In this document: one piece after another, positions 22,196 through 64,000 of the stretch | How the letters are laid out: the number at the start of each line of letters is the position of its first letter | Numbering within the stretch: the first letter of the stretch is position 1 | NCBI GenBank assembly: GCA_041653195.1 | Contig: JBAZFU010000003.1 | Coordinates: 8,912-72,911 of the forward strand | Reading direction: 5' to 3' | DNA from: an archaeon | GTDB taxonomy: Archaea > Iainarchaeota > Iainarchaeia > Iainarchaeales > JAAZKV01 | DNA length: 64,000 nt | Program-made: the position numbers and the translations under genes | Notes under the pieces: generated by a model | Seen by the model: only the letters and a program-made list of their open reading frames with translations | Told to the model about the DNA's origin: nothing | Database searches by the model: none

Positions 22196-25100
22196 CTAAT
22201 TATTTTTTTTATAAAAATTTCTTTTTCTTGTAATAATAAACGATGCCGCAAGGAAAAGCGAGACGAAAAGCATTAGGCTTTCAACGGTTTCTGGAACCGA
22301 TGGAATATTAAGTCCTGTGCCTGTTGATGTGCCAACATTGAACGTCATAGGATTTTTGCCTTCGCCCACAATTTTTCCGTTTTCGCCTGCGATGTAAAGC
22401 CCGTTATCTTTTATTCCCTGATTAAGCGGGATTTGCATCCCGTTTTCCGGATACCATTTTCCTGTTGTCGGGTCGTACCAGAATGAGCCGTTTGGCCCTT
22501 GCGCTGCAAGGAGTGTTTCCGGAGTACCGTTGTTGTAAGTCAGCATTGGAACCCCGTTTTCAGAATCAAATTTAAGGCTGTGCTGTTTCCCGTCAGCAGT
22601 GCTGAAAACTAATGTTCCATCTTCAAGTTGTTTTATTCCTTCAACGCCGCCGACTATTTCAGAATCTTTAATTATTTTCCCCGTATCCTTGTCCCTTATT
22701 CTGAAATAATCTTTGCAATCACCGCTTGTAGGGTCGCGCTTTGAATAGAACTCGTAAATTCTTCCGTCAGTTATGAATTGAGTGAAAGGCCCCAGGTGAT
22801 CCATTGATTGATTGAAGGTAGTTACTTTTTTCTGACCCAAGTCATCATTCGGATAAGCTTGTGCGGCAAGGTTTAGCGCCGGAACGGGGCACTCGGTTTC
22901 AGGGTCTATGATTGATGTTTTGGTAGCAGTTAATCCTGCAACATCTTTTGCATCAAGAACTGAATCTTTGTGCTGTCTTAACCAAACTATGAGTTCGTTT
23001 GTTTCTGGTTTTAGCGCTATTACTCCGTAATCGAAATTCATTGAAACGAATTTTCCGGCAGGCTGTTCTTTTCCGTTATCCGAAAATTTTGTTTCCCAAA
23101 AACCGTCAACAATTACTTTAGAATCGCTTCCGACACCCTGTGTTCTGTTGCCCGTTCCTTCCAAATAAATTTTTCCGCCCTGCACGAATATTCCGCTGTA
23201 ATCGGAAGTTTTCAAATTTTTGAGTGCGCCGAAAGCTTGTGTTAATTCATCGCCCGAGAACACTATTCCCGTTTGTGCTTCAACCGCTTTTTGTATGCAA
23301 CTCAAAACTTCTGCATATACGACTCGCACTTCGCCGTTTGTGTTTAATTCAAACACCGGAGAATCAACTTCGGGCGCAGCTATTTTCGTAAGTGTTTTCG
23401 GAACAACTATTGCGGGAATTCTTGTGTCTGCAGGAGTCGTAGCCATTCTTGTGTGATCGGCTTTTGAAGCGGGAACAACAACTTTGCCATTGTATTTTAT
23501 TTCTCCTGTTTCATTGTTAACTTCGAGGCTTTTGTTTCCGTCTTTCCAAATAATTTTTCCTTCTGTAGAATACCCTGACGGCATTATCGAGCCCTTGTAC
23601 CATATGTAAAACACATCTTTTCCTGTAACGCCGCCTGTACTGAGCGGATCAAGTTTAATGGTTGCTTGGAGCACGTTTGCTTTTTGTGCTTGTTCGGAGA
23701 AATTTGAAAATTGTTGTTTTAATTTGTCCATCGCGCTTGAAACAACGTTTGGCTGAGAATTATCAGTTGAATTTTTTGCAACCGCCCCATTAACACTATC
23801 AACTATTTTTGCGGCAGTGCTTGTTAGTGTTTCATTAGAAATTAATTCTTTTGGCTGGCTTGTTTTTGCTTTCTCACTCGGCGGCATATAGAAGTGTATG
23901 TAATAACCTTCGGCATCATCAACACAATCTTTTAATTTTGGGGCCAAATAAACTTGTTGGATTCCTGAGGCTATCAACCCAAACCCGGGGTTTATTACAT
24001 AAGCCATGTTCTCTCCGAATGCAAGTATTCCTCCCGCACCGGTTCCTGCCCAGCCTAACCCTATTTCTCTTAATTTCTGGTCGCATGTTTCTCCGTCTTT
24101 TCTCCCATCAACAAGGTTAATCGCTTCGCCTTCAATGTCGCCTGTTTTTCCCTTAATGTTAGAGTGATGAGTGTAAGCTATTAGCGTAGTCCCTTCTTTT
24201 GCTTTTTCATCCGCATCTGTTGCTTCCAATAGGAAAACTTGCGCGCTTTCTGTAATCTTAAAACCGCCGAATGTTAAGTAATCATCTTTGTAAGTCATGT
24301 CGGCGCCGCAACCATCGCATTTCTCGTTGTGAGAATAAAATGCAATATCTTTTACCGTGTCGCGCATTATTGAGCCGTTTGTTATTCCCGCCTGCAACCC
24401 GCCTTCGCCTGAAAATCTTGAGAACCATTCTTTTAGTTGAGGCACAGTACTAAGCGCAGGGTCAAGCACCAGACTTCTTATCGGGAAAATGAAAGAGTTT
24501 ATTGCTTTAGCAAATAGGTCTCCTTGATCAGAGCCTTCGTTTGCGAAAAAATCAATAAAAGAATCATTGTAAATTCTGTCAACGCCTTGTGTAATCGCTG
24601 TTGTTGTCCAGCTGTCCGGAAGCATGTACGCAGAATAATCTTCATTTCCGAATCCTCTTTTCGCGTTCCAGTAAAGTATCGGCATTACTGTTCCCTTCCA
24701 GATACCTGCTCTCAGCGGATCCTTGAAATACTGTTTAAGCATATTATCCTCTAGAGCGAACTGTCTGTCAAGAACACTAAGAGCTTTTCTTGGCTTGAAA
24801 TTTTTTTCGGCCATTGCAAGCGTCAAATCTTTTACGTTGTTTTCAGCGGTGTTGTATCTTGAAAACATTCTGCTGTGTGTTATTCGCGCAGCAAAGTCTT
24901 CCGGCGTTAATACTTCGGCTTTTTCGAAGCCTGTTTTATAAATATCTATCGAAGCCGGAAGATACTGATTCTTTGATAAATTTCCAAGGCCGCTTTCAGA
25001 AAGTTCCACGAAATTTCCGTTAGTAAGTTTTACTGATATGCGTCCGTCGCCGTACTGTTTTATCCATTTTGTTAAATCTTCAAAGCGAACATTGGATTGT

Positions 25101-26944
25101 TCAAGTTTATTCGGCACCACTTTATACAATTGTATTCCCTTCTCAGTTACTTCGAAAGTGTCAGGGCTAAGCGAAGCTTTCCAAGCATCCCAATTCCCAT
25201 TTTTTTCAAATTCTTTCATTATTGATTTCATGTCATAGTTTTTTCCGGTTAGAGATATTGCGCCCTGTTCAACATTGGCAACTCCGTTTTTTTTAACTGA
25301 CAACCCTTGAAGTGAAAACAAATCCTCGTTGTTCTGCACCCATTCGGGCACATCTAATCGCGTAATGTCATCCCACTCGTTGCCCATTCTAACAAGGTCT
25401 CTTGCAACATCAACTTTGCTGGAATTTAAAGCCTGTTGAGCCGCTTTTATTGCATCAGTATTGGTTCCTGCAACTTTAATCGCATCATCATAATTTTTCA
25501 TCGCTGATTCAAGTACTGACTTGTAGTCCTTTGCTTTTACATTGCTTGCTTTCACATAAGAGGCGAAGGTTTGGAAATCGTCAAAAAATTGTTCTCTTTG
25601 CAACGGAGTAAGTTTCATTAATTGTGATTCATTAGAGAGCATGTCGCTTACGAATCCCTGCGCTCCGTTCGAAAAAAGTTTCTTTTTTATTATTAAATCA
25701 TCCATTGCCGGGCCGAATCCGTGCTTCTGAACATTCGGCCAAAACTGGCTCATTTTTTGAACACCCACAAGGTTTGCGGGAGTTTCTTTTATTCCTGTTG
25801 CAATTTTGCTATAAGTTTTATTCAAATTTGCGAGCCCTTTTCCCAAAATAGTTTGCTCCTCTTTTCCAACATTAGTTGATACTCTTGAGGCGATTGATTT
25901 TAAGCCTCTGGTTGCCTGATTAAAAAAAGTCGGGCCGATGTTGAAGACAACCAGGTCAGTTGAGAACCACGAATTATAATATTTGTCGAACGCGGAATAA
26001 GTGCTTATTGCGCAATTGCTGTTGTTGCAGCTTGTTGCATTTTTTGCGCCGTAACTCTTTGTAAGAATTGAATTTTTTATTTTTTCTCCGGACGCCCAAC
26101 TAATGTTTGTAAAATTCGAATCGTTTTGGTCAACAATATTTTGTTTTAATTTTTCATACTCCTGATCAGTCATATTTATTTTTGATCTCTCGGCAACATC
26201 GCTAAGAGAAGCGACTGCGTTCGTAATATCCGAACTAAAACCGGTGCCGCTGGTTCTAATGCTTAGCCCCGGGTCGTTTATCCAACAGGCCTGACTTTGC
26301 AAGTCCGCGCATCTTCCGACTCTAAGCGTATCATCCAAAACCAATCCGAGTCCCCATGGGCCTTCTATGTGCCTGTCCGCCAAAAATTTGAATCTTTCAG
26401 CATCGGTCATTTCATTTGGAGGTTTTTGAGTGACTGCATTCTTGCCGTCATTGCTTTCTCCGACTATCTGTGCGCCGTCAATTTTTTTTCCAGGCTCGTT
26501 AGTGTCAATTCCGTCGCCCAAAATTTTACCGTCAAACCCGTCGCTGGTAATATTCATTATGGCTTTCGATTCTTTCGGAGTGAGGGAAGATATTACGCAG
26601 GAACTTCCGTTCGAATAATCTATTCCGTCGACATTGTTGCTCGTCGTCGAATCGGCGGTGCCGGAGGTTGTCGTGCCTGCTGTTCCGGCAGTTGTTGCGG
26701 AATTGTCGGTTGTTTCGCTTGTTGTTGTGCTCGTTGAACTATCTGCGGTATCGGTAGCGGTTGTAGTTTCTGCTAAAAAAATTTTTTCGCTTGAAACTTG
26801 TACATAATCAGAATTTATGTTTTGAAAAGAGAGCGCGAAAGCCGGCGAGCTCATAAAAAGAAGCATCACGAGAAATGCGGCGAAAAAGCCTCTGCAAAAG
26901 TGGCTGAACAAATTTTCAGCACCTATTTTATTCATCTCATTCAC
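22196..26944 (-). CDS. 1582-aa secreted protein with a PEF/PEP-CTERM-like sorting tail
   Basis: Signal peptide ending SPAFA, Thr/Ser-rich linker, several Cys pairs, C-terminus IPSVPET + hydrophobic helix + TRKRNFYKKNN. Confidence 0.75.
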   Translation of the reverse strand: MNEMNKIGAENLFSHFCRGFFAAFLVMLLFMSSPAFALSFQNINSDYVQVSSEKIFLAETTTATDTADSSTSTTTSETTDNSATTAGTAGTTTSGTADSTTSNNVDGIDYSNGSSCVISSLTPKESKAIMNITSDGFDGKILGDGIDTNEPGKKIDGAQIVGESNDGKNAVTQKPPNEMTDAERFKFLADRHIEGPWGLGLVLDDTLRVGRCADLQSQACWINDPGLSIRTSGTGFSSDITNAVASLSDVAERSKINMTDQEYEKLKQNIVDQNDSNFTNISWASGEKIKNSILTKSYGAKNATSCNNSNCAISTYSAFDKYYNSWFSTDLVVFNIGPTFFNQATRGLKSIASRVSTNVGKEEQTILGKGLANLNKTYSKIATGIKETPANLVGVQKMSQFWPNVQKHGFGPAMDDLIIKKKLFSNGAQGFVSDMLSNESQLMKLTPLQREQFFDDFQTFASYVKASNVKAKDYKSVLESAMKNYDDAIKVAGTNTDAIKAAQQALNSSKVDVARDLVRMGNEWDDITRLDVPEWVQNNEDLFSLQGLSVKKNGVANVEQGAISLTGKNYDMKSIMKEFEKNGNWDAWKASLSPDTFEVTEKGIQLYKVVPNKLEQSNVRFEDLTKWIKQYGDGRISVKLTNGNFVELSESGLGNLSKNQYLPASIDIYKTGFEKAEVLTPEDFAARITHSRMFSRYNTAENNVKDLTLAMAEKNFKPRKALSVLDRQFALEDNMLKQYFKDPLRAGIWKGTVMPILYWNAKRGFGNEDYSAYMLPDSWTTTAITQGVDRIYNDSFIDFFANEGSDQGDLFAKAINSFIFPIRSLVLDPALSTVPQLKEWFSRFSGEGGLQAGITNGSIMRDTVKDIAFYSHNEKCDGCGADMTYKDDYLTFGGFKITESAQVFLLEATDADEKAKEGTTLIAYTHHSNIKGKTGDIEGEAINLVDGRKDGETCDQKLREIGLGWAGTGAGGILAFGENMAYVINPGFGLIASGIQQVYLAPKLKDCVDDAEGYYIHFYMPPSEKAKTSQPKELISNETLTSTAAKIVDSVNGAVAKNSTDNSQPNVVSSAMDKLKQQFSNFSEQAQKANVLQATIKLDPLSTGGVTGKDVFYIWYKGSIMPSGYSTEGKIIWKDGNKSLEVNNETGEIKYNGKVVVPASKADHTRMATTPADTRIPAIVVPKTLTKIAAPEVDSPVFELNTNGEVRVVYAEVLSCIQKAVEAQTGIVFSGDELTQAFGALKNLKTSDYSGIFVQGGKIYLEGTGNRTQGVGSDSKVIVDGFWETKFSDNGKEQPAGKFVSMNFDYGVIALKPETNELIVWLRQHKDSVLDAKDVAGLTATKTSIIDPETECPVPALNLAAQAYPNDDLGQKKVTTFNQSMDHLGPFTQFITDGRIYEFYSKRDPTSGDCKDYFRIRDKDTGKIIKDSEIVGGVEGIKQLEDGTLVFSTADGKQHSLKFDSENGVPMLTYNNGTPETLLAAQGPNGSFWYDPTTGKWYPENGMQIPLNQGIKDNGLYIAGENGKIVGEGKNPMTFNVGTSTGTGLNIPSVPETVESLMLFVSLFLAASFIITRKRNFYKKNN

Positions 26945-27511
26945 CTACAAAACTGCTCCCAAAAAACTTATAACCAACAACGGAAGCGCCCTTATTTTTC
27001 CGTAAAAAGTGAAAATAAAAAGCCCCAAAATAACCCAATCAAAAAAGAACAAAATCAGCACTAAGAATAGGGCGGCGGCGCCGAAAACGCCTATCAATTG
27101 TTTTAGCAAAACAGAATACTTATTTTTTTTCTGCATTGAAATTATCAGGCTCGCTACGAATTCGAAAATAAGCAATGCGAGCGCGATGGTTATCGCGGAA
27201 ACCGCAATTCTAATACTGTCAAATAAAATAACCCCTAAATTTTCAAGCATAGTGAGTTGAGAATCCTGGTCAACCGGAGCGCCTGTAGCCGCGCCTATCA
27301 AAATAAAGTAGATGTAAAAGAAAAAAAGCCACGCAAAAGCAACAACAAAATTCAGAATAATACAGGCTTTTACCCAACTAAGCGAATGCTTACCTGTCAA
27401 TTTTTCAAGAATCGGTTGCCCGAGCTTGTAAGCTATAAACCCGATTACTCCAAGGGGAACGAGCAATTTAAGAAAATCTATTGCCGTGCCCGCTATAGTG
27501 AAGATATCCAT
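26945..27511 (-). CDS. Multi-pass membrane hypothetical protein, abutting the 1582-aa gene
   Basis: About 5 TM segments; its TGA abuts the next ATG (AGGTGAATG); start moved to ATG 27511. Confidence 0.7.
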   Translation of the reverse strand: MDIFTIAGTAIDFLKLLVPLGVIGFIAYKLGQPILEKLTGKHSLSWVKACIILNFVVAFAWLFFFYIYFILIGAATGAPVDQDSQLTMLENLGVILFDSIRIAVSAITIALALLIFEFVASLIISMQKKNKYSVLLKQLIGVFGAAALFLVLILFFFDWVILGLFIFTFYGKIRALPLLVISFLGAVL

Positions 27512-27694
27512 GCTTTCAAAAAAATTATATATATAGTGATATATAAGCGTTCCTTTGGCGAGAGTTTCTTTCAAGTTTTTTAAATTTAAGAACTTTAAAA
27601 AATAGAGAAATCCGCGTGCTAAACGGGCATTCTCAAAACAAAAAGTAATAAATACCTAGGAACTTATTAGTATCCGGAAGCGCGGTGAAATCAC

Positions 27695-28294
27695 TTGATT
27701 GATTTGCTTATTTATCTGGTTTCAGTTGCAGGAAGCTTTTCAATTGGTTATTCTATTATTAGATTAGGCTGGCCGGAGACCCAGGGATTCTCGGTAACCG
27801 AAAAAATAAGTTATGCTTTTCTTGCAGGCCTTCCGATTTCAATAATCTCTATAATTGTTGCATTCGGTTTCGGCGCAAAATATTTTTTCTTTATGTTTGG
27901 AGCGCTTTATGCCCTGTTTATTGCAGTAGCTTTTGCAAAAAGAATTTCGTTTGAAGAAACGGATTCGACTCAGTTAGTTAAGAAAAAAAAACGTGAATTG
28001 ATTCCTGAAAAAATATTGGCCGGCGACAAAAAAAGTTATTTCAATGCGGAAAGCGCAAATCAAAAAGAACAGGTTTTTAAAGAGAAAAAAACAAGTATAA
28101 TTTCTGACCTAAAACAGAGACTTTTAGGTTCCGAACAAAACAAAGATGCGGAGAAGAAGAACGCTTTACAGCAGTTAAAAGCCATTGCAAAATCAAATGA
28201 GAAAAAAGATTCAGGGAAGAATAAAAGAAGCTGCAAAGAACTTGGAGAGGATATTAATTTAAGCGAACTTGAAAAAATTGAAAGGTTTGAATAA
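27695..28294 (+). CDS. Membrane protein (3 N-terminal TM helices, charged tail)
   Basis: Hydrophobic residues ~1-80 then a Lys/Glu-rich tail. Confidence 0.7.
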   Translation: MIDLLIYLVSVAGSFSIGYSIIRLGWPETQGFSVTEKISYAFLAGLPISIISIIVAFGFGAKYFFFMFGALYALFIAVAFAKRISFEETDSTQLVKKKKRELIPEKILAGDKKSYFNAESANQKEQVFKEKKTSIISDLKQRLLGSEQNKDAEKKNALQQLKAIAKSNEKKDSGKNKRSCKELGEDINLSELEKIERFE

Positions 28295-28320
28295 AAATTT
28301 ATTAAAGCAGAGTTGATTTT

Positions 28321-29220
28321 ATGGAAAAAACACCCCGCAGGCTCAGAAGGTTTTATCGTCAGGCGGAACAAAAAACAGGGCAACACCGGCGCGGTGGAGA
28401 CGCGGAAGAACGAAACGGAAACGAAGAAGATTATTACGGGCTCGGAGCGGGTTATGATACCCCTGCCTATTCGGAACACTCGCCCCATCAGCCCCTTTCA
28501 GGAATTCCGACAATGAGCTATGAAGACATCAACATCGATGAAAAAAACTATCGCGAACTAAAAAAATTCGAACAGAAAAAAAAAGAAGAGGATTTGGCGC
28601 TTGTAGAAATAGCGAAATTTAAGGAAAAAAACAAGCGCATGCCCAACAAAGAGGAAGCGGAACAAATCGCGGAAAATATTTACACCCAGCTAAAAGACAG
28701 CAATGTTTCCGAACTCTACCCAAAAGAAGAAATTGCGGAAAGCGAAGCTCAGCAAACGGAAGGTAAAAGGGAAAACTGGCGTGATAGAAGATCAAGAAGG
28801 GCTATGCGGAGAGGCGAAGTAAAAGAAAACCCTGTTGAAGAGGAAAAAGGAATTGAGCCGATTGCGCCTGTTTCCGCCGAACCGATTAAAAACATAAAAT
28901 CTTTACTTGAAGACGAATCATTTGACATCGGAGACGAAAAAAAATCGCCCGGCAAAAAAAACGGCGCTGATAACGAATTCGATTTGGGAGAGGGTTTTGA
29001 CGAAGAAGGCGGAGAAATTAATTTGGACGAAGAACCGGAAGAAATCGTGGCGGTTGAAAAAGCCGACAAGAAGGAAAACCTTTGCACAAATTGCAAGGCA
29101 AAAACGGATAAAATTATTTACTGCCCTAAATGCGGGAAGGCATATTGCGCAAAATGCGCGGCGGCATATTCCGAAGGAAAATATTCCTGCCCGAGCTGCG
29201 GAACAAAAACAAAAATCTAA
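28321..29220 (+). CDS. Acidic, partly disordered protein with a C-terminal 8-Cys zinc finger
   Basis: Long Glu/Asp-rich linker; C-terminus CTNC-x9-CPKC-x4-CAKC-x10-CPSC. Confidence 0.75.
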   Translation: MEKTPRRLRRFYRQAEQKTGQHRRGGDAEERNGNEEDYYGLGAGYDTPAYSEHSPHQPLSGIPTMSYEDINIDEKNYRELKKFEQKKKEEDLALVEIAKFKEKNKRMPNKEEAEQIAENIYTQLKDSNVSELYPKEEIAESEAQQTEGKRENWRDRRSRRAMRRGEVKENPVEEEKGIEPIAPVSAEPIKNIKSLLEDESFDIGDEKKSPGKKNGADNEFDLGEGFDEEGGEINLDEEPEEIVAVEKADKKENLCTNCKAKTDKIIYCPKCGKAYCAKCAAAYSEGKYSCPSCGTKTKI

Positions 29221-30710: not shown

Positions 30711-30727
30711 TGAATCACCAAAAAATA

Positions 30728-32953: not shown

Positions 32954-32958
32954 AAAAA

Positions 32959-58500: not shown

Positions 58501-59932
58501 TTCTATTCCAATTTGCAACGGCACGACTAAGACTATGAAAAAGTTTTATACTGCCGAAGATGACAAGGGTTTAGTAACACTCGGCTACAAAATGCCTTCT
58601 AACACACCTGCCGCAAGCAAGGACAAAGTGCTTCAATGGGATAAGGACAGCGCTATTGCAGACATGATTGACCTGTTGAACACAATTATTACTTCAGAAT
58701 CTGCTGGAGCCGACAAGATTCTTTTGGAAGTGCCTTCAAGCGATGCGCGCACAGACACTCTTGGAAAAATAGGAACAAGAGTCGGAGACAACTATTATAT
58801 CCCGATTAAAAATTATCTTGAAATATTGAGAGCGATTAGCAAGAATGAATCCTGCAAACTGGGAGACGGAAAAGACTGCACAATTAGTGTGTCCTGCATT
58901 AACGCTACGCCGATTGTTCTGAAAAACGGGGATGCGCAATACCTTGCAGAAAATACTTTCGTAAAAAAAGGTGTTCCGGAAGTTACAAGCGACACAACCG
59001 AACAAAATCAGATTTACAAAATGAATCCTTCGCTGGGCAAAATACACGCTCTTGCGGATTTCAACATGCTACTAACAAAAGCGGATTTCGGCGAAGAACA
59101 ATTGAGTGCTTTCAACACTTGGGCGAACAGTAACGAAACCATAACTAGCGACAGCGCACAAAATTTAGTGGATTTCATGGAAGCCAAAGGCCTTAAATTT
59201 GAAGGAACAAGCACAAGCAAAGACGTTGGAAAATACTCTACAAATTTGAATTATAATTACTGCCAAACTGGCGATGCTGAAGAAAAACTTGAAATGACCG
59301 TTAAATTCGGCGACAAATCTGAAATTAAAGATGCGAAGAAAGCGAGCACAAACATTTTGCTGCAAAAGGGTTATGCATTCGAACCAAAATCTTCAAGTCT
59401 GGCCGAATCGGATAACGGAACAATATTCGGCAAAGGCACTGCGGACGGAAAAGGAATTTTCTATAAAAGAGTTCCTGTAAAAATTGAAGTGACTGCGCCT
59501 GCTGGAGAAACTTCTTTCGAATATGAGTTTATAAGCGCGCCCGAGGATGCTCCGAAAGAATTCTTGACATGGTATAATTCGAGCAACGCAAAATTCGGAA
59601 AAGGAAAACTCGGCACAGACAACAAATATTTATTGGGCGGAATACACGTTGGAAGCGCGACAACCTTGAAAAGCATTTATTATTTCCCTGAGGAAAACGG
59701 AAATTTGAAATTCTGGAAAGGAAAGTCGGGAGATTTAAGCATAACCGCGACGGATGTTACCGAGAAAAACAAATTCGGAACATCATCAAGCATTGTTGAA
59801 AGCAACGGAACACCTGTTATTCCGACGCCGCAGGAAATAATCGATTATGCGAATGAAACAACAAGCCAGAAAGTTTGCATCAGCGAAGAAGGCGACAGAG
59901 TATTCTGGAACGAAGAACTTATAATAAAATAA
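52562..59932 (+). CDS. 2456-aa N-terminally anchored giant surface protein (paralog B)
   Basis: FYFKLEDKWY...RGVPS + TM; carboxypeptidase-regulatory-like repeats (VLDADTGLPVLGAEV...TGATGQVSF); Tyr/Gly/Asn inserts; Cys-linked C-terminal region. Confidence 0.85.
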   Translation: MGITDSLKDFYFKLEDKWYGFVDKVSDTFPAFGNLVDAIEDRGVPSLPIVIALVLILIFGIYLIFALGGGSAVTFTVTDADKNPLVGANLTVFVEGNARESVPTGANGKVTVYLANGDYQIKIEKENFSPQTIDYTANGNDEQGIILLPQETTISKLVKLQTGNGALIPGNGTVIYSCEETGETGSASYSNGQFNAIFNNPCQTISVDSVSGYEITQGRISFSGSINSIEVEEKTINTGKVIVNLTSGSGDTPIHAGIKVLLVSVDSSVLPMTQLTQQTLSVAFDDVPTGAYHVVVSDPDGKFAELDSSSLEQPKTISKDETTTFNVTLQKSASVTLTISVLDADTGLPVLGAEVALMRENITLNTDVTGATGQVSFKIVEGSIYSVQVSHPNYMLANELSVSSAKPNVQINIVKANEANSRTLTVLAIDPDGEVISDAKVFLKKNDETQIGEPKVTGADGKTSFFNLELGETYYAYAIKEGFEGANSSTIQITPRVENLLRVTLNIGKGTMNISVMDSDSAILSGATVTAVDYFTGKTISQAATDAAGLASFEIRADKKVYFTAEASGYMKYFTSAVYPDVGAATDKEIIMAKETGSLSGEIIGIYSGNNLVSGGDNQSIAQGTYTVKAILTVPKGSFSEAGLHLRTGKAEEGVTNLMEEDSLYLGRIESSATKTIRGTTYTPTSGYDVDQKNLTSGNSKWANVTWKSPGAGTYEIESELVITNTDAGMPLDLWYRAWAKGSSVLRYPSDTPQQELYAKAKRYILSFDATNVCIGSFCRSYYIETLTGSEKGKRAYINNTFQAQKDTNYALVFTLTNNSSKTISDAELTVEGKSLTVSEITLDGKKVDSPVKLGTLDKGSFNSGRIIFDTTSAGVATLRLMINSTAKNEFDETITVSVPANKKFSLSMVPKEIIPYITNTLFFDVSDGNEPVSDAAIEIYSAKTLLGTVETTGEGLAEFDLAAPTPGKIIKIVAKKEGYDNFEVERTVDEQILTVIPPEIEGTIKIGEAIGLEQEVIFENGTVRDLKIEGVSFEGGTNSLLTFGFESPAEGTTIVSGADKNFTLSIKIKKDAYRLEGPKTIEGKMMVSVGVLDTTEGSTDSVQTFLTEVPISIRLTLPGYIESDGCLQVTPGEIEFISGGEEAVQTIEIENTCSADGIDIPLHNVEAKLKDDSKFGKIIIVGADTNFGSATLSTSYSTIADFMERAAKESVTIKFSPSKTIASGKQETVIEFRGKNTPEEGVDEYVGSNVNLKITMSNLSQCVEIQEPAGGVLLEVAGFNDGQSGFIGTNYAPTVSAYAMTYQGFTDRGGVSSPYGLNNSYGNGLPFTNYGSQNLDAQQTDSFVIKNNCVGDVEIDLDPDSRVSVDEEKFTISANNDRTVTVSPGYTLGRYKVKVNAKAAKTEDSLQNIGTVNVTVQKLGDTDDDCIKVSTSRLNFNSFVQSPQTYKVYNYCYDLGTTLSRDPNAVSISCTPQYSPQMQGYQAPYLMYGQEQLYNNSYPLNTGGTGTDLVSYPGMLNNQVPYYNGWGGGTTNNYSSMYDYIRPNGTCIQNNCQMVSGTQIINRRMTQGGPNGSIEELIFQVSPSMNYIPQRQVYNQGAQTYGPIASILMLQNFAGSANTMTNLYGTINVEYSNRYGSGQCKNFPVQIEDNWNMLSLLDSAMLWGSSNAEPGDCVEPSALDIVSYWKKHGSSSGVVPDSSFKTTTYLHVADPPAIRVGGGASSVSIFNIGLNSSGGKCGLNDSLTNVKVGGGSTYGVTIKASTVSPSSKSTTMFGGGKGVNLTVEINRSGLKSNCAYIEVPVTATLKRAINMKSAEVSWTLKVLVAKEGYKVGSLEECENGSTAKTKEDCLKWLADEKASAPKEKTAKQILEAVKAAHKECTMLTESDVTAVQKGSCRTVTSDYGFKYINMTESLAEPVDCNNFFCNSTQAQAFLMKRYKEIDDAIIKLEDIEKVCKEEESSSMRDNRTLNNLYSEAEKVSIPICNGTTKTMKKFYTAEDDKGLVTLGYKMPSNTPAASKDKVLQWDKDSAIADMIDLLNTIITSESAGADKILLEVPSSDARTDTLGKIGTRVGDNYYIPIKNYLEILRAISKNESCKLGDGKDCTISVSCINATPIVLKNGDAQYLAENTFVKKGVPEVTSDTTEQNQIYKMNPSLGKIHALADFNMLLTKADFGEEQLSAFNTWANSNETITSDSAQNLVDFMEAKGLKFEGTSTSKDVGKYSTNLNYNYCQTGDAEEKLEMTVKFGDKSEIKDAKKASTNILLQKGYAFEPKSSSLAESDNGTIFGKGTADGKGIFYKRVPVKIEVTAPAGETSFEYEFISAPEDAPKEFLTWYNSSNAKFGKGKLGTDNKYLLGGIHVGSATTLKSIYYFPEENGNLKFWKGKSGDLSITATDVTEKNKFGTSSSIVESNGTPVIPTPQEIIDYANETTSQKVCISEEGDRVFWNEELIIK

Positions 59933-59960: not shown

Positions 59961-60467
59961 GTGGGACTGATGGAAAAAAAACCCGCAATCGCTTTGCTGC
60001 TTTGCCTAATCGCATTATTTTTAGGATTCATTTATTCATTCGCAACTCCTTCACCGAATTTCCTGACATCAATACCTCTTACTTTTCTCGTAATCGGGTT
60101 TTTTTTAATGAGCGCGCTTTTTTTCGGATACCTTGCTTTTTTGCCGCACATATTTTACGGACTGGCAATAGGCTCTGAAAAAAACGCGGCAATATTTCTC
60201 TACATTTTTCCAATAGTGCTTGCCACATATGCGGGAGCAAAACTTGGTTTTGCGCTTGAAGCGGATTTCAAATTAGAAAAATATTTTTTAGAGGACGGAA
60301 AAAAGGTTTTTTGGATGCTGGTAACGGCAATCATTTTGGCGCTCGCAATTGAAATATTGTTACCGCAAATAATTTCGATGATTCCCGAAGGGCTTTTCGG
60401 GTTGGACATAAAAGGCGGAGAAACTACTGTGAGCCTGTTTGACAAACTTCGGGGACTTGCGCACTAA
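59961..60467 (+). CDS. Multi-pass membrane protein (possibly SpoIIM-like)
   Basis: 4-5 TM segments; sits between two giant-protein genes; likely start ATG 59970. Family assignment is weak. Confidence 0.6.
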   Translation: MGLMEKKPAIALLLCLIALFLGFIYSFATPSPNFLTSIPLTFLVIGFFLMSALFFGYLAFLPHIFYGLAIGSEKNAAIFLYIFPIVLATYAGAKLGFALEADFKLEKYFLEDGKKVFWMLVTAIILALAIEILLPQIISMIPEGLFGLDIKGGETTVSLFDKLRGLAH

Positions 60468-60598
60468 AAATCGCGCTTTTTAATTGATTAAACTTTTTAA
60501 CAATTAGGGTAAAGTATATAAATGACTGTAGAATATAGTTATGTAAGGTTTAGAATTTCTTTAGCTGGTTGGGAAAACGCTGGTTTGGTTGGTTACTG

Positions 60599-63500
60599 AT
60601 GGGCATTGGAGAAAAACTAAAGGACATTTACTATGCGGGAGAGGAAAAGTGGTATTCCTTCCTAGATAAGGTTGATGAACATCTTCCGGTTTACGGAATA
60701 ATTGACAGAATCGATTCGGTTGTGCCGAGTTTTGCTCTTTTTTTAGTTCTAATAATAATAATTTTGCTTCTTTTGGGGCTTTTCATGGTAGGCTTTATCG
60801 GGCCGGGCCAAGTTGCAACACTAAAACTAACTGTTTCCGACGAATCCGGAAATCCGATTGAGGGCGCATCAATAGCACTTTCAGGCCCTTTTGAATTGGA
60901 AGCGACTTCAAACGCTTACGGTTTAATTCAGGATGTGGAAGTTCCGCTTAATTCCACTATAAAAATTGTAGCATCAAAAGACGACATTACGCAAGTAAGA
61001 GAAATATTTATTTCCGAATTAAACCAAATAGAAGAAATTACTCTTCCTGTAAAAAGCATTTCTTTCGACGCAAAAACAATAAGACTTTTGACTCCCACTG
61101 GAAGCCTTTCCACCGAAGAAGTTACTCTTACCTTCTCTTGCACAACTCCTGGAGTTAACCCGCCGGACGAAGCGGTCACTTCAACAGGAATAGTAAATGT
61201 GAATGTGCCGAGCGATTGCGGAATTTTAATGGCAACGGTAAAATCAGGCAGATATAAGGCCGGACCATATTCAATAACTGCTTCAAATATTATTCGCCTT
61301 GAAGAAGTTTCAGCTCAACAGGCACAGGTAACTGTTAATTTGAAATATAATGGCGCATTAATCAGCGAATCTGTTCCGGTAGACGTTTATAGGGAAAATA
61401 ATTTAGTTTCGCCGGACGATACGAAAAGAGCTTACAACGGACAGGCAATATTTACTCTTGATGAAGGAAATTATTATTTCGTTACAAAAACTACGAGCAT
61501 TTACAAATCCGAAAGATCGGGCCTTACCACCGTAATTGGAAATAAGCCGCAGAGCGTTTCCATGGATTTGGACAAAAATGTTGTTGGAAGCATTCATGTT
61601 AATGTTACTGTAAACAGCGTGAGAACTGAAGGCGTTTATGTTGCTTTGAAAAAAGATTTAACCGAAGTAAACAACGGGGAAACCGATTCAAACGGAAGCA
61701 TTACTTTCGACGTTGAAGAAGAAGGAACTTATACTGTAATGGCTTCGCTCGACGGTTATTGCACGAACGCAAAATCGGATGTTGCGGTTGGCTCAACAGT
61801 TTCAATAAACTTGATAAGTAGCACTGCAAGCTGCGGTTCCACACTAAAAGCACAGGTTGTCGATTCTGACGGAAGAAGCGTTCCATACGCAAAAGTTGTT
61901 TTATTCGGCGAAAATGATGCGGGCGTATACAAATTAGGTTATACTGAAAAAGTTACGGACATAAACGGAATGGCTCAGTGGACAAGCATCCCTGATTCTA
62001 CCGACAAGCTAAGAGTTTTTGCTTACAAATCGGTGTACAACGGTTGGAGCGAGTCGCGCATTTTCAATTCTGGCAATGCGGATGTTCCGTTCGCGGTTGC
62101 ACTTGAAATCCCATACGGCACTGTAAATGTTTCAGTGAAAGACAGGGATGGAAACCCTTTGCAGTACGCGACCGTTACGCTTTACGATGATTACTCCCAG
62201 GGAAATGTGATAGGCACAAGGTTTGTGGAAAGCGCGGACGGAAAAGTTTCTCTCCAAGTAAAAGCGGACAAAAAAGTTTATGCAGTTGTTTCAAAGGAAC
62301 CCTCTGAAGCAAACGATTTGGGTTATGAAACAGTTACAACAGTTCCAAAACAGGTAATCGGAAACGGAGTGATTAATTTTGATGTTGCATTACCGAGACC
62401 GCCGCTCGAAAAAATAAACGCGGAATTTTTGGGGTTGTACAAGGGCGATGAAAAAGTTTTGAAGGTCGAGGCCGCCGGAGAATACGATGCGTTGTTCGCG
62501 ATTACTGCGCCTATTTCATACGATAATTTGGGATTATTTGTAAGAGTCGGCGCTGACAATGTTACAAAAACAGAGTTGGATAAACTTTACATAAAAGATA
62601 TTGAAGCGCCAAGAGTGCACACGATAACAAAAGGAAGTTCTTACAACGCGCCAAGAGGAGGGGAAACAGATTCTGAAAACCTTAACTTGGAAGAGAGCAA
62701 GTGGGCACAGGTAGTTTGGGCACAAAACAGTTACATTCCTGGAAAAATATTTGTAAAAGCGACGATAAAAATCAGGGATACGGCGCAAATGGGCGACCAA
62801 CTAATTATTGCTTACAGAGCATTCGGAGTAGAAAACGGTTTGTATGACAGGGACCCTGTTGATGACGCGCTTGGAACTGCAGAAAGCAGCAGCGCGAAAA
62901 GCCCGTTGTACGCGCAGACGAATGAAGAATACATGAAAGTCGGCGAAGAAACGCTGTGCGAAGTCACTGACAGCGGAAAAACATTCTGCGTAACTTCAAG
63001 TTACATTGACGCGAAAGAAAATTTCATTCATTACTTTGACACGAGCTTTGATGCAAAAAATAATGAGACTTATTATTTGGGAGTGAAGGTTCTGAACGGG
63101 GGCTCAAGACCGCAGGACACTTATTCGAATGCACAAACAAAAGTGCAAAACGACGAAGAAAACACTTACATGGGCGCTTACACTTTATCTACTCCAACAT
63201 CAATAACTTCGAGCGGAAACATAAACGGTTATGAAGGAGACTGGATTGACACTTCAAGCTTTGGGCAGGGCAGTTCGATTAATTTGCAGTCGCTCACATT
63301 AACACCTCAAAAATCAGGAACGGGAACAATTCTATTTAGAATAAGAGACGGAAAAGAATTGATTTTTGAAAAACCATTTACCTTGAATATTGCGGCTTCA
63401 GGCAAACTGCGAATTGAATTCATGGTTAACGGCGAATTCCAAGCGGAAATGCCCACACTATTATCCGGAAAAGATGAAAATGTTACTGTAAAGATTTTTG

Positions 63501-64000
63501 ATACGGAAACGAATCTTGAAGTCAGCGGAGCGATAGTGAAATTGTTTGACCGCTTCGGCACAAAACTTTACGAAAAAACTACTAACACAATCGGAATTGC
63601 GACAATAATTGTTCCGGCTGCGCTTCCGGGAGAAAAATTAACTCTGAGAATAGAGAAAGGCGGTTACGAGACGCTTGAGTTTCCTTTCACAATTAGCGAG
63701 GATGTTGTAACTGTTACGCCTGAAGACCTTTCATACACGCTTAATCCTCAAACAAAACCAACTGAAACAAAAACTGTTAAGATTGAAAACAACACCGGAA
63801 TCGATTTGACAATCAAAAATATAACACTGGTTGGAAAATTCAAAAACTTGCTTGATGAAGCGAGGATTGCGAGTGCGCTAGAAGTTTACAAAGGAAAAAT
63901 AATCAAGGCACAGGATTACGAGGAAATTGATTTCCAGGTAATACTTGCAGCGGTAATTCCATCAACTGATGATTTGGACGGAACGTTCCAGATAACACTC
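60599..64000 (+). CDS. Giant N-anchored surface protein (paralog C), 3' end outside the window; absent from the ORF track
   Basis: Manual translation MGIGEKLKDIYYAGEEKWYSFLDKVDEHLP...VVPSFALFLVLIIIILLLLG. The frame was spot-checked near 60.6-61.2 kb, 62.5-63.0 kb and the window end (1134 codons if fully open). Confidence 0.85.
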   Translation, partial: MGIGEKLKDIYYAGEEKWYSFLDKVDEHLPVYGIIDRIDSVVPSFALFLVLIIIILLLLGLFMVGFIGPGQVATLKLTVSDESGNPIEGASIALSGPFELEATSNAYGLIQDVEVPLNSTIKIVASKDDITQVREIFISELNQIEEITLPVKSISFDAKTIRLLTPTGSLSTEEVTLTFSCTTPGVNPPDEAVTSTGIVNVNVPSDCGILMATVKSGRYKAGPYSITASNIIRLEEVSAQQAQVTVNLKYNGALISESVPVDVYRENNLVSPDDTKRAYNGQAIFTLDEGNYYFVTKTTSIYKSERSGLTTVIGNKPQSVSMDLDKNVVGSIHVNVTVNSVRTEGVYVALKKDLTEVNNGETDSNGSITFDVEEEGTYTVMASLDGYCTNAKSDVAVGSTVSINLISSTASCGSTLKAQVVDSDGRSVPYAKVVLFGENDAGVYKLGYTEKVTDINGMAQWTSIPDSTDKLRVFAYKSVYNGWSESRIFNSGNADVPFAVALEIPYGTVNVSVKDRDGNPLQYATVTLYDDYSQGNVIGTRFVESADGKVSLQVKADKKVYAVVSKEPSEANDLGYETVTTVPKQVIGNGVINFDVALPRPPLEKINAEFLGLYKGDEKVLKVEAAGEYDALFAITAPISYDNLGLFVRVGADNVTKTELDKLYIKDIEAPRVHTITKGSSYNAPRGGETDSENLNLEESKWAQVVWAQNSYIPGKIFVKATIKIRDTAQMGDQLIIAYRAFGVENGLYDRDPVDDALGTAESSSAKSPLYAQTNEEYMKVGEETLCEVTDSGKTFCVTSSYIDAKENFIHYFDTSFDAKNNETYYLGVKVLNGGSRPQDTYSNAQTKVQNDEENTYMGAYTLSTPTSITSSGNINGYEGDWIDTSSFGQGSSINLQSLTLTPQKSGTGTILFRIRDGKELIFEKPFTLNIAASGKLRIEFMVNGEFQAEMPTLLSGKDENVTVKIFDTETNLEVSGAIVKLFDRFGTKLYEKTTNTIGIATIIVPAALPGEKLTLRIEKGGYETLEFPFTISEDVVTVTPEDLSYTLNPQTKPTETKTVKIENNTGIDLTIKNITLVGKFKNLLDEARIASALEVYKGKIIKAQDYEEIDFQVILAAVIPSTDDLDGTFQITL

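What the first reader, a model, noticed from the sequence alone, without database searches (positions are those of the whole stretch)
22196..64000. A ~42 kb surface super-locus: T4P operon, archaeosortase, sortase-tailed proteins and three giant paralogs, a candidate DPANN host-contact apparatus
Seen: nearly every gene from 22.2 kb to the window end encodes an exported or membrane protein. These are a pilus ATPase and platform, eight pilin-like proteins, an archaeosortase, two proteins with PE-x sorting tails, and three paralogous N-anchored proteins of 2971, 2456 and >1134 aa. Known: DPANN archaea are often episymbionts, and type IV pili and giant surface proteins are proposed host-interaction factors. 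Inference: these genes form one co-functioning machine in which a retractile pilus with a multi-subunit tip captures a partner cell, and long glycosylated Ig-like stalks present hydrophobic, helical distal domains to its membrane. I do not recognise this combination as a named system.
Basis: partly seen in the sequence, partly recalled or inferred. Interest (0 to 1): 0.85.

Follow-up and report, generated by a model that had tools for sequence, protein, structure and literature searches.

The report
Conserved pilus–archaeosortase–giant surface protein island
A tiny DPANN archaeon (Iainarchaeota) spends about 6% of its genome on one block of cell-surface genes (a pilus machine, a sortase-like enzyme and four giant membrane-anchored proteins) that recurs across the phylum and has not been described; whether it grips a host cell is unproven.

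Summary
The window carries:
- a divergent FlaI/PilB-type ATPase and an 817-aa T2SSF-like platform;
- eight pilin-like genes, one of them a 57-aa mini-pilin;
- one archaeosortase-family gene and two proteins with PE-x tails;
- N-anchored giant proteins.

There are four tandem giants, not three (2971, 2456, 2805 and 2331 aa). The island runs about 12 kb past the window end, covering 54 kb, or 6.2% of the 871-kb assembly.

The ATPase ortholog is in 135 of 151 genomes of the phylum. The archaeosortase gene lies within 5.4 kb of it in 25 of 30 relatives. The triad ATPase <-> archaeosortase -> first giant recurs in another order and in MAGs labelled Micrarchaeota. The island is two modules that can separate, and one family has dispersed it.

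Conserved linkage is shown. A single physical machine, retraction, a tip complex and host contact are not shown. The modelled G3 distal region is beta-sandwich, not helical or hydrophobic. Only G4, and weakly G1, has conserved hydrophobic segments. Iainarchaeota are described as putatively free-living.

Best reading: a lineage-specific adhesive surface and envelope island built from known kinds of parts plus an uncharacterised family of giant proteins.

The parts
18052..21314 (+). Second type IV filament core just outside the finding: TadA-like ATPase (18052-19467) plus a split TadB/TadC-like platform (19454-20332, 20382-21314). No pilin genes of its own lie next to it.
   Evidence: Pfam T2SSE 135 bits; T2SSF 36 and 43 bits. 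Same position next to the 1582-aa gene in G001, G005, G006 and G039.
22196..26944 (-). p1582: signal peptide, Thr/Ser-rich linker, large ectodomain with no Pfam match, and a C-terminal tripartite tail (NIPSVPET, then TM, then RKR). Best candidate archaeosortase substrate.
   Evidence: Sequence; no Pfam or NCBIfam hit. Tail consensus [LF]N[IL]P[SL]xP[EG]x-TM-basic in 6 genomes from 3 families.
26945..27574 (-). tm209: multi-pass membrane protein whose gene abuts p1582. Conserved partner of unknown role.
   Evidence: orthologs in G005, G006, G039.
27695..29220 (+). Conserved pair. p199 is membrane-anchored and charged (27695-28294). znf299 is an acidic protein with a C-terminal Cys-rich zinc ribbon (28321-29220). 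Possibly regulatory.
   Evidence: Weak RING/zinc-finger Pfam hits. Pair conserved in G005, G006, G039.
29221..31504 (-). Three pilin-like genes: pil285 (RG|QAALTD), pil229 (KG|FIGAIGDDLPSL) and pil258 (N-terminal TM, no clear cleavage site).
   Evidence: Leaders conserved in 4-5 relatives. No curated family hit.
31553..32182 (-). pil209, a pilin-like gene (RG|QVSAPFEL).
32191..32364 (-). 57-aa mini-pilin (Flp-like: short leader, one hydrophobic helix, KPMF..AQK tail). A TATA-like box precedes it, and a T-run follows the upstream pil175 gene. Candidate major pilin.
   Evidence: Conserved ORF in the same gap in G005, G006, G026, G038, G039.
32426..33578 (-). pil175 (RG|QAFSVFEL) and pil187 (KA|QAGAVFRL), both pilin-like genes.
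   Evidence: A pil175 paralog lies on C2.
33600..36053 (-). plat817: very divergent, elongated T2SSF-type platform protein.
   Evidence: hhalign of residues 36-365 to TadB: probability 73%, E 3e-5. Pfam T2SSF matched by 3 of 5 orthologs, best E 2.7e-5; the window's own copy only E 0.21. No PDB sequence match. Ortholog in 37 of 40 relatives.
36105..38438 (-). ATP777: FlaI/PilB/TadA-superfamily ATPase with a ~300-aa N-terminal extension carrying a Cys/His cluster. Near-universal in the phylum.
   Evidence: Ortholog (48-91% identity) in 135 of 151 genomes and in 54 of 55 high-quality ones.
38575..39348 (+). HD-domain protein. An insertion seen only in this genus so far: a homolog is present in the closest Lac Pavin MAG but absent at this position in G005, G006 and G039.
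   Evidence: Pfam HD 60 bits.
39391..40068 (+). art225: small archaeosortase/exosortase-family protein. The only one detected in the genome.
   Evidence: TIGR04178 35 bits against cut-off 23. Invariant LC[ST]G..E, FN..R and H..LFR. No paralog found. Within 5.4 kb of ATP777 in 25 of 30 relatives.
40201..49116 (+). G1 (2971 aa): N-terminal anchor module (conserved ~45-aa segment, then GVPSF, then TM), beta-rich repeats, a Thr/Ser/Pro linker, and a C-terminal ~700 aa rich in Lys/Ala/Glu with weak hydrophobic patches.
   Evidence: No Pfam hit. Full-length orthologs immediately after the archaeosortase gene in family f1.
49177..50756 (.). Inserts with no ortholog in the four other-genus and other-family genomes compared (G005, G006, G038, G039; G001 not checked): a small wHTH-like gene (49177-49446, -) and prop407 (49533-50756, +). 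prop407 has a signal peptide, a weak propeller-like hit and an LSLPEP-TM-NRKK tail.
   Evidence: no orthologs in G005, G006, G038, G039.
50815..52347 (+). pil510: pilin-like protein (RG|FNLFSALVA) always found between G1 and G2. It has a 72-residue N-terminal helix and a globular head with no solved relative.
   Evidence: 46 homologs, all unnamed. AF2 pLDDT 85, pTM 0.79. No PDB fold match, E > 1. Position conserved.
52562..59932 (+). G2 (2456 aa): N-anchor module followed by CarboxypepD_reg / Big_1 / MG-like beta-sandwich repeats.
59961..60467 (+). tm168: small multi-pass membrane protein conserved between G2 and G3.
60569..64000 (+). G3 (2805 aa in full; runs to C3:77897 beyond the window). 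It is followed outside the window by G4 (2331 aa, C3:78175-85170) and small TM genes.
   Evidence: AF2 model of the G3 C-terminal 656 aa shows beta-sandwich domains.

Best explanation
This is a lineage-wide cell-surface gene island of Iainarchaeota, also found in MAGs labelled Micrarchaeota. It is built from two conserved modules.

Module B (pilus module):
- It encodes a type IV filament machine: an elongated FlaI/PilB-family ATPase and a very divergent T2SSF-like platform.
- Its pilins are a ~40-residue (mature) Flp-like mini-pilin as the likely shaft subunit, plus five or six larger pilin-like proteins as likely minor subunits.
- It ends with a 1582-aa secreted protein that has a conserved IPSxPE-TM-basic tail.

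Module A (giant module):
- It starts with a small archaeosortase-family enzyme, which most plausibly cleaves and lipid-anchors that tail protein and a few others.
- Four ancient paralogous giants (2.3-3.0k aa) follow. Each has an N-terminal signal-anchor module and long chains of beta-sandwich domains. They are acidic, Cys-rich and sequon-rich, as expected for exposed glycoproteins.
- A 510-aa pilin-like protein is interleaved between G1 and G2.

The ATPase gene sits back-to-back with the archaeosortase-giant operon.

My reading is that the two modules together build the cell's adhesive outer surface: thin pili plus a coat or brush of tall stalk proteins, used to attach to surfaces or to other cells.

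Shown: gene content, conserved motifs, and conserved linkage and co-occurrence.
Inferred: filament assembly, archaeosortase processing of the tail proteins, surface exposure of the giants, and any physical coupling between pilus and giants.
For: Gene identities.

Linkage:
- The ATPase ortholog is in 135 of 151 genomes of the phylum.
- The archaeosortase gene lies within 5.4 kb of it in 25 of 30 relatives that have one.
- Tandem arrays of 3-4 giants follow in at least 19 relatives. The same holds in another order (G041) and four further families.
- An archaeosortase homolog precedes a giant in 17 of 80 loci. In 12 of these the divergent ATPase is there too, including MAGs labelled Micrarchaeota.

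Gene order:
- Order across the whole island is the same in a closed genome of another family (G039).
- G1-G4 each have collinear, full-length one-to-one orthologs.

Sorting tail and enzyme:
- The p1582 tail motif is conserved in 6 genomes.
- The Cys/Arg/His signature is invariant in art225 orthologs.

Other support:
- The mini-pilin is conserved.
- The genome has two prepilin peptidases.
- Giants carry 1.0-1.6 sequons per 100 aa against a background of 0.68, and 20-34 Cys each.
- No PF05123-type S-layer protein is found in the genome.
Against: - Linkage is not absolute. In genus g3 and some genomes of g5 the platform lies on another contig or more than 100 kb from the ATPase. In G006, the one fetched, platform, pilins and p1582 together sit 128 kb away.
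- In family f3 the ATPase, the archaeosortase gene, the pilus module and the giant array are all apart.
- Within the family, housekeeping genes to the left are just as syntenic. Close-relative synteny alone is therefore weak evidence.
- The giants lack a C-terminal tripartite signal, so the tight archaeosortase-G1 adjacency is not explained by a canonical substrate relationship.
- A second ATPase/TadBC core next door could be the real motor for the Flp-like mini-pilin.
Confidence: 0.45

Rival explanations
1. This is the first reader's model: a dedicated host-contact apparatus. A retractile pilus with a multi-subunit tip captures a partner cell. The giant stalks then present membrane-active distal domains to the partner's membrane.
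For: - Cultivated DPANN are ectosymbionts, and type IV pili drive episymbiosis in Saccharibacteria (PMC9894109, listed).
- G4 orthologs keep an internal Gly-rich hydrophobic hairpin with Kyte-Doolittle scores up to 2.4. G1 orthologs keep weaker Cys-flanked hydrophobic patches.
- The island takes 6.2% of a reduced genome.
Against: - No retraction-type ATPase was identified in the island.
- The modelled G3 C-terminal region is all beta-sandwich. Its only PDB matches are generic Ig-like ones. The homologous G4 C-terminus is probably the same.
- G2 and G3 have no hydrophobic segment other than the N-terminal anchor.
- The G4 hairpin is at about 63% of the protein's length, not at the tip.
- Iainarchaeota are described as putatively free-living (PMC12892359).
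- One-to-one orthologs in a fixed order look like core structural parts, not fast-switching host-range adhesins.
Confidence: 0.15
2. This is the assembly-engine model, like the Sulfolobus bindosome system (Bas) or a type II secretion pseudopilus. The ATPase, platform and pilin-like proteins do not build a free pilus. Instead they deploy or organise the giants in the envelope. The conserved cytoplasmic N-terminal module and the (I/V)PSF-TM motif act as the recognition signal, and pil510 acts as the adaptor.
For: - When the modules separate, the ATPase stays with the archaeosortase-giant operon, not with its platform.
- pil510 is always embedded between G1 and G2.
- The N-anchor module is invariant at V-P-S. 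It is found only at the N-terminus, in 606 protein-cluster representatives.
- G1 orthologs carry [RK]G|[IV]PS, which resembles a class III cleavage site.
- BasE is among the weak NCBIfam matches of the ATPase.
Against: - G2-G4 lack a Gly/Ala at -1 or a Lys/Arg at -2, so they are poor prepilin-peptidase substrates.
- The BasE score is 69 bits against a cut-off of 1000.
- A conserved Flp-like mini-pilin with its own promoter-like box argues for a real filament.
- Family f3 keeps every part without the adjacency.
Confidence: 0.15
3. There is no functional coupling. The pilus operon, the archaeosortase and the giant array are independent surface functions. They sit together only through inherited gene order in slowly rearranging small genomes.
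For: - Housekeeping genes left of the island (GGR, UPP synthase, rubrerythrin, Ogg, PAC2) are equally syntenic within the family.
- PAC2 sits between the Tad-like core and p1582 even in another family.
- The island is split in genus g3 and dispersed in family f3.
Against: - The ATPase-archaeosortase-giant triad survives to 45-53% ATPase identity, in another order and in MAGs labelled Micrarchaeota. General collinearity is not expected to persist that far.
- The archaeosortase (module A) and its best candidate substrate p1582 (module B) tie the two modules together.
Confidence: 0.2

Closest known systems
Archaeal type IV pilus loci with associated large proteins (Makarova, Koonin & Albers 2016, PMC4858521)
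   Same: - Both have a FlaI/PilB-family ATPase, a polytopic platform and several pilin-like genes with class III signals.
- That paper already notes large S-layer-like or adhesin-like, Cys-rich proteins inside some archaeal T4P loci.
   Different: - Here the ATPase (777 aa, with a Cys/His N-extension) and the platform (817 aa, barely recognisable as T2SSF) are oversized.
- The shaft candidate is a 57-aa Flp-like mini-pilin.
- The large proteins are four fixed N-anchored paralogs plus an archaeosortase gene.
- DPANN lineages are not mentioned in that paper.
Archaeosortase A / PGF-CTERM system of Haloferax volcanii (reviewed in PMC6098224)
   Same: - Both have the family signature domain and a conserved Cys/Arg/His.
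- Both genomes encode proteins with a C-terminal motif-TM-basic tripartite signal.
- In both, the enzyme is tied to major cell-surface glycoproteins.
   Different: - art225 is much smaller (185-225 aa) and reaches no ArtA-E subfamily cut-off.
- The motif is IPSxPE or PE-x, not PGF.
- The review places archaeosortases in a subset of Euryarchaeota, not in DPANN.
- The gene is fixed next to giants that have no C-terminal signal.
Tandem 'Giant1-5' surface protein genes of Apilactobacillus kunkeei (PMC12863079)
   Same: Consecutive genes for very large extracellular proteins take up about 6% of a small genome (abstract).
   Different: - That case is bacterial and the proteins are unrelated in sequence.
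- The abstract seen does not mention a pilus machine or a sortase-like gene next to them.
- Here the giants carry a specific N-terminal anchor module and are phylum-wide one-to-one orthologs.
Bacterial Tad/Flp pilus and Methanococcus Epd pilus
   Same: - Both use a very short Flp-like pilin.
- The ATPase has a TadA-like match, TIGR03819 at 125 bits.
- A TadA/TadB/TadC-like core lies next door.
   Different: - The TIGR03819 score is below its cut-off of 373.
- The platform next to ATP777 is a single fused 817-aa protein.
- Which of the two motors serves the mini-pilin is unknown.
Micrarchaeota S-layer protein SLP_Mh (10.1101/2021.04.28.441871)
   Same: It is the known outer-surface protein of the sister lineage. 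It is N-terminally anchored or signal-bearing, and it is glycosylated.
   Different: - It is a 101-kDa protein with the PF05123 domain.
- No PF05123 match exists in this genome, and the giants share no domain with it.

Membership tests
Type IV filament (archaeal type IV pilus) system | PilB/FlaI/TadA-superfamily secretion ATPase | tested here: met
   Pfam T2SSE 66.3 bits against cut-off 24.9. Walker A GSRGAGKTS is visible in the sequence.
Type IV filament (archaeal type IV pilus) system | Polytopic T2SSF-family platform protein next to the ATPase | tested here: inconclusive
   - The window's own protein matches T2SSF only at E 0.21.
- Three of 5 orthologs match, best E 2.7e-5, all below the gathering score.
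- hhalign to the neighbouring TadB gives probability 73%, E 3e-5, over 272 columns.
- No PDB sequence match.
Type IV filament (archaeal type IV pilus) system | Pilins with class III signal peptides ([KR][GA] cleavage site followed by a hydrophobic helix) | tested here: met
   - Motifs [RK]G|Q, KA|Q and [RK]G|F are conserved across 4-5 genomes for six genes.
- The mini-pilin has RA|Q or KG|Q in G039, G038 and G026, and a less typical FG|A/M site in this family.
- This rests on inspection only; no curated pilin model matches.
- pil510 is modelled with a 72-residue N-terminal helix.
Type IV filament (archaeal type IV pilus) system | Prepilin peptidase (Peptidase_A24) in the genome | tested here: met
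   Two matches above the cut-off on contig C1, not in this island.
Type IV filament (archaeal type IV pilus) system | An assembled extracellular filament | not testable with these tools
   Needs microscopy of a culture or enrichment.
Archaeosortase/exosortase family | Family signature domain above the curated cut-off | tested here: met
   TIGR04178 35 bits against cut-off 23. Pfam Exosortase_EpsH only 17 bits against 25.7.
Archaeosortase/exosortase family | Conserved catalytic-type Cys, Arg and His | tested here: met
   LC[ST]G..E, FN..R and H..LFR are invariant in 6 orthologs from 4 families.
Archaeosortase/exosortase family | Membership of a named subfamily (ArtA-E) | tested here: not met
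   The best match is ArtC TIGR03762 at 23.9 bits against a cut-off of 100.
Archaeosortase/exosortase family | Substrates in the same genome with a C-terminal motif-TM-basic tripartite signal | tested here: met
   Five candidates genome-wide, two of them in this island. The p1582 tail motif is conserved in 6 genomes.
Archaeosortase/exosortase family | Proteolytic removal of the tail and lipid attachment | not testable with these tools
   Needs mass spectrometry or heterologous assays.
Archaellum | FlaI equivalog score and archaellin/FlaFGH genes | tested here: not met
   NF058587 148 bits against cut-off 550. No archaellin or Fla accessory family appeared among the neighbours scanned.
Sulfolobus bindosome assembly system (Bas) | BasE-type ATPase | tested here: not met
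   NF053672 69 bits against cut-off 1000.
Archaeal S-layer proteins (PF05123 type) | S_layer_N domain | tested here: not met
   No match anywhere in the genome and no S-layer family in the giants. This does not exclude an S-layer-like role.
Bacterial alpha-2-macroglobulin-like proteins | MG domains plus a thioester (CxEQ) domain | tested here: not met
   Weak bMG3 and MG4 hits in G2 and G3, but no C[GLAIV]EQ motif in any giant.

The most novel reading that the evidence does not exclude
The N-terminal module of the giants (a conserved ~45-aa cytoplasmic segment, then an invariant (I/V)PSF, then a TM helix) is a new sorting or assembly signal. A dedicated pair, the oversized Cys/His-bearing ATPase and the small archaeosortase-like enzyme encoded back-to-back with it, recognises this signal and deploys or processes giant surface proteins. 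That would make this a previously unknown archaeal surface-protein deployment system shared by Iainarchaeota and Micrarchaeota, covering at least 600 protein-cluster representatives.
Probability: 0.15. Interest if true: 0.85.

Novelty: new variant of a known kind. Interest (0 to 1): 0.62.

Why it matters
DPANN archaea are a large, mostly uncultivated part of archaeal diversity. How their cells are built and how they attach to anything is largely unknown, and for Iainarchaeota I found no description of a surface protein or S-layer.

This island is near-universal in the phylum and costs about 6% of a sub-megabase genome. It links three things that are usually studied separately: a type IV filament motor, an archaeosortase and giant surface proteins.

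It gives concrete targets:
- the four giants, the 1582-aa tail protein and the mini-pilin, for antibodies, proteomics and cryo-ET in enrichments;
- a defined N-terminal module that marks an uncharacterised family of at least 600 giant-protein cluster representatives;
- an archaeosortase outside the Euryarchaeota, with a new tail motif.

If the coupling is physical, it would be a new way of deploying very large surface proteins.

Tried and rejected
1. Giants as S-layer proteins of the Micrarchaeota type: no PF05123 in the genome. An S-layer-like role stays open, but family membership is rejected.
2. Giants as alpha-2-macroglobulin-like proteins: only generic MG/Ig hits and no thioester motif.
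3. ATPase as archaellum FlaI or bindosome BasE: scores far below the cut-offs.
4. pil510 as a known minor pilin or tip adhesin: the model is confident, but no PDB fold match was found.
5. Giants as canonical archaeosortase substrates: they have no C-terminal tripartite signal.
6. Giants as ordinary class III (prepilin) substrates: only G1 orthologs keep [RK]G before the motif.
7. Homolog collection for the G1 and G2 distal regions found nothing beyond the query, both by word-index search and by single-protein locus search. A ten-sequence alignment was too divergent to search with. A three-sequence alignment worked.
9. Profile search of the platform against PDB sequences gave no hit.

Full report
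**Organism and setting**

The window is C3:8912-72911 of an 871,508-bp assembly in 25 contigs, 88.8% complete. The closest named records are MAGs of Candidatus Iainarchaeum, with ATPase identity of 92% to a Lac Pavin sediment MAG. Earlier notes on the same genome also place it in the DPANN class Iainarchaeia.

**What is in the range**

On the minus strand, tightly spaced, lie in order:
- a 777-aa ATPase (36105-38438). Pfam T2SSE scores 66 bits against a cut-off of 24.9. Its best NCBIfam models are FlaI (148 bits) and TadA (125 bits), both far below their cut-offs;
- an 817-aa polytopic protein (33600-36053);
- six pilin-like genes (33578 down to 29221).

A 243-bp gap between two of the pilin genes holds a 57-aa ORF (32191-32364). 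It has one hydrophobic helix, and a TATA-like box precedes it; a T-run follows the upstream pil175 gene. The same mini-ORF sits in the same gap in five other genomes. Earlier agents working on other Iainarchaeota genomes independently reported a ~55-residue mini-pilin. Counting the 510-aa pilin-like gene at 50815-52347, that makes eight.

The leaders are conserved across genomes: [RK]G|QAFSVFEL, [RK]G|Q.SAPFEL, KA|Q, [RK]G|QAA, KG|F[IL]G.IGDDLPSL and RG|F. One gene (30728-31504) has no clear cleavage site.

The 817-aa protein is only weakly recognisable as a platform:
- hhalign to the neighbouring TadB gives probability 73%, E 3e-5;
- Pfam T2SSF is matched by 3 of 5 orthologs, best E 2.7e-5;
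- no PDB sequence matches.

Two prepilin peptidases are encoded elsewhere in the genome.

Further left lie a conserved zinc-ribbon and membrane-protein pair, a multi-pass membrane protein and the 1582-aa protein. The last has a signal peptide and the tail NIPSVPET-TM-RKR.

Divergent from the ATPase, on the plus strand, lie:
- an HD protein;
- a 225-aa archaeosortase-family protein (TIGR04178 35 bits against cut-off 23);
- G1 (2971 aa);
- a small wHTH gene on the opposite strand;
- a 407-aa protein with an LSLPEP-TM-NRKK tail;
- pil510;
- G2 (2456 aa);
- a 168-aa membrane protein;
- G3.

**Corrections to the observation**

The contig continues past the window. G3 is 2805 aa, and a fourth giant, G4 (2331 aa), follows it. 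After G4 come four small membrane proteins. From the 1582-aa gene to the end of G4 the island is 54 kb, or 6.2% of the assembly. The four giants alone are 31.7 kb.

An HMM built from the giants' first ~75 residues finds six ORFs in the genome. These are the four giants, a 1441-aa protein on C5 and a truncated one on C17.

Paralogy is uneven:
- G2, G3 and G4 are collinear over their first 1300-1400 residues at 25-26% identity (E 1e-52 to 1e-81).
- G3 and G4 also share a ~630-aa C-terminal region.
- G1 shares only the anchor module and a ~220-aa domain with G3.

A second ATPase with a split TadB/TadC platform lies at 18052-21314, just left of the stated range.

I ran it on 40 relatives, drawn from this family and 16 other families of the order.

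Presence in the 40 relatives:

| Part | Relatives with a match |
|---|---|
| ATPase, full or near-full-length ortholog at 53-91% identity | about 30 (plus end-of-contig fragments in five more) |
| Archaeosortase homolog | 30 (all 10 high-quality genomes) |
| Platform | 37 |
| N-anchor giants | 39, mostly 4-7 per genome |

Across the phylum, the ATPase ortholog is in 135 of 151 genomes and in 54 of 55 high-quality ones.

Positions in the 40 relatives (coordinates):
- In 25 of the 30 relatives with an archaeosortase gene, it lies 0.1-5.4 kb from the ATPase.
- In at least 19 relatives a giant N-terminus lies within about 25 kb of the ATPase on the same contig. Usually this is the start of an array of 3-4 giants.

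Gene order:
- Gene-by-gene comparison of fetched neighbourhoods shows the same order across the whole island in G005 and in G039. G039 is a closed 1.24-Mb genome of another family.
- G1 to G4 each have a collinear, full-length ortholog in the same position, at 22-49% identity.

Beyond the order:
- G041 has the ATPase next to giants, as do four further families.
- Among 80 loci fetched with the N-anchor profile, an archaeosortase homolog lies in the 3 kb upstream of the giant in 17. That is about the share expected if only the first giant of each array is preceded by it.
- In 12 of those 17 the divergent ATPase is present too. These include records labelled Micrarchaeota, Micrarchaeia and Nanobdellati, with ATPase identity of 40-51%.

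The refuting outcome did not occur.

**Limits of the linkage**

- In genus g3 and some genomes of g5 the platform lies on another contig or more than 100 kb from the ATPase.
- In G006, the one genome of this kind that I fetched, the island is two modules 128 kb apart.
  - Module A: ATPase <-> archaeosortase, G1, pil510, G2, tm168, G3, G4 and the small TM genes.
  - Module B: platform, pilins, the zinc-ribbon pair, tm209 and p1582.
- In family f3 the giants stay in tandem, but the ATPase, the archaeosortase gene and the pilus module lie elsewhere.
- Within the family, housekeeping genes to the left are equally syntenic. A PAC2-family gene sits between the Tad-like core and p1582 even in G039.

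Within-family synteny therefore says little. The weight rests on the comparisons across families and orders.

**The archaeosortase and its substrates**

Orthologs from four families keep an invariant LC[ST]G..E, FN..R and H..LFR. This matches the conserved Cys/Arg/His of the family as reviewed in PMC6098224. No ArtA-E subfamily cut-off is reached, and no paralog was found in the genome.

A genome-wide scan finds five proteins with a P[ED]x-TM-basic tail, two of them in this island. The p1582 tail is conserved as [LF]N[IL]P[SL]xP[EG]x-TM-basic in six genomes, including family f3. That makes p1582 the best substrate candidate and ties module A to module B.

The giants have no such tail. The near-invariant placement of the archaeosortase gene directly before G1 therefore remains unexplained.

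**The giants**

All carry a conserved ~45-aa N-terminal segment (L.D.Y..LEDKWY..D), an invariant V-P-S before a single strong TM helix, and then beta-rich repeats.

Domains and composition:
- G2, G3 and G4 hit CarboxypepD_reg, Big_1 and MG-like Pfam families. G1 hits nothing.
- They are acidic, carry 20-34 Cys, and have 1.0-1.6 sequons per 100 aa against a background of 0.68. None has a thioester motif.

Family size: against 1.84 billion cluster representatives, the anchor profile finds 606 proteins at E <= 1e-10. The match is always at residues ~1-100. Full-length members are mostly 1600-1800 or 2200-3400 aa.

Distal regions:
- An AF2 model of the G3 C-terminal 656 aa (11-sequence alignment, pLDDT 73, best in the last 250 residues) is a chain of beta-sandwich domains. 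Its only PDB matches are generic Ig-like or CARDB-like.
- Only G4 orthologs keep a strongly hydrophobic Gly-rich hairpin, with Kyte-Doolittle scores up to 2.4. It sits at about 63% of the protein's length.
- G1 orthologs keep weaker Cys-flanked patches.
- G2 and G3 have none.
- The G1 C-terminal ~700 aa was not modelled.

pil510 gives a confident model (pLDDT 85) with a 72-residue N-terminal helix and a head that has no solved relative.

**How it most likely works**

The conservative reading is a two-module surface island. A type IV filament, with a Flp-like mini-pilin shaft and larger minor pilins, sits beside a coat or brush of tall N-anchored glycoproteins. At least one large protein is anchored through the archaeosortase. 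Together they form the adhesive outer face of the cell.

No PF05123 S-layer protein exists in this genome. The giants could therefore also serve as the envelope itself.

Two more specific readings stay open. The other is an assembly-engine model in which the motor deploys the giants. The second is favoured by two facts: the ATPase gene stays with the giant operon when the platform moves away, and pil510 is fixed between G1 and G2.

Against the host-contact reading:
- Iainarchaeota are described as putatively free-living (PMC12892359).
- No retraction ATPase was identified.
- The modelled G3 distal domains are plain beta-sandwiches.
- The giants are fixed one-to-one orthologs, not variable adhesins.

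**Comparison with what is known**

- Large S-layer-like or adhesin-like proteins inside archaeal T4P loci were noted by Makarova et al. 2016 (PMC4858521).
- Tandem giant surface genes taking about 6% of a small genome are known in Apilactobacillus (PMC12863079).
- Archaeosortases are known from a subset of Euryarchaeota (PMC6098224).

I found no paper that links an archaeosortase to DPANN, or that describes this combination or the N-anchor family. The 46 pil510 homologs are all unnamed.

I rate it a new variant of known kinds of system, not a categorically new one. Every recognisable part belongs to a known class, and the function of the whole is still inferred.

**Not done**

No multimer prediction was available.

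Noticed in passing
window 36105-38438 (orthologs in G004, G013, G032, G063, G075, G078, G087, G089, G090, G104, G108, G136, G153, G162): In at least 14 related genomes the ATPase ortholog is a 1270-1330-aa open frame (1835 aa in G153). Its match to the query breaks at residues ~496-502 and resumes about 500 codons later. This looks like an intein inserted shortly after the Walker A region; G153 may carry two.
   Followed up: no
window 18052-21314: A second TadA-like ATPase with a split TadB/TadC platform has no pilin genes of its own beside it. It is conserved next to the 1582-aa gene, separated only by a PAC2-family gene, in G001, G005, G006 and G039. It could be the real motor for the Flp-like mini-pilin.
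   Followed up: partly
window 32191-32364 (-): A 57-aa mini-pilin ORF sits in the 'gap' between two pilin genes, preceded by a TATA-like box; a T-run follows the upstream pil175 gene. It is conserved in five other genomes and falls below usual ORF-length thresholds.
   Followed up: yes
own genome C3:78175-85170 (G4), residues ~1440-1495: A Gly-rich, strongly hydrophobic hairpin lies in the middle of G4 (…GLVGAVAGGGLAYM…GGWVVGGITVVGGLVGLLVGG…). It is conserved in position in G005, G006, G038 and G039. It could be an internal membrane hairpin or a glycine-zipper segment.
   Followed up: partly
own genome C5:40088-44413 (-) and C17:1-1383 (-): Two further proteins carry the same N-terminal anchor module outside the island: one of 1441 aa and one cut by a contig end. 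The database length mode of ~1600-1800 aa suggests a separate, shorter subfamily.
   Followed up: no
window 9235-12063 (+): A 942-aa protein with Big_13, Big_7 and fn3 domains lies upstream of the island. It is conserved in G001 and G005, so it is another large surface protein in the neighbourhood.
   Followed up: no
window 27695-29220 (+): A conserved divergent pair sits inside the pilus module in every genome checked. One is a membrane-anchored charged protein; the other is an acidic protein ending in a Cys-rich zinc ribbon. Function unknown, perhaps regulatory.
   Followed up: no
own genome C3:85660-87588: Four small multi-pass membrane proteins (111-140 aa) follow G4. Three of them are conserved after the giant array in G005 and G006, and one in G039.
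   Followed up: no
window 40201-49116, 52562-59932; G3/G4 C-terminal regions: All four giants contain a short motif, C-x(2-6)-[FY]-C-[DN]-[AST]-x-[QT], followed by a helix. Examples are NGYCDAKTAAKYL, NFFCNSTQAQAFL, YVYCDTTQFTIST and YVYCDASQFSIEV. This hints at one shared distal domain despite the otherwise undetectable G1 similarity.
   Followed up: no
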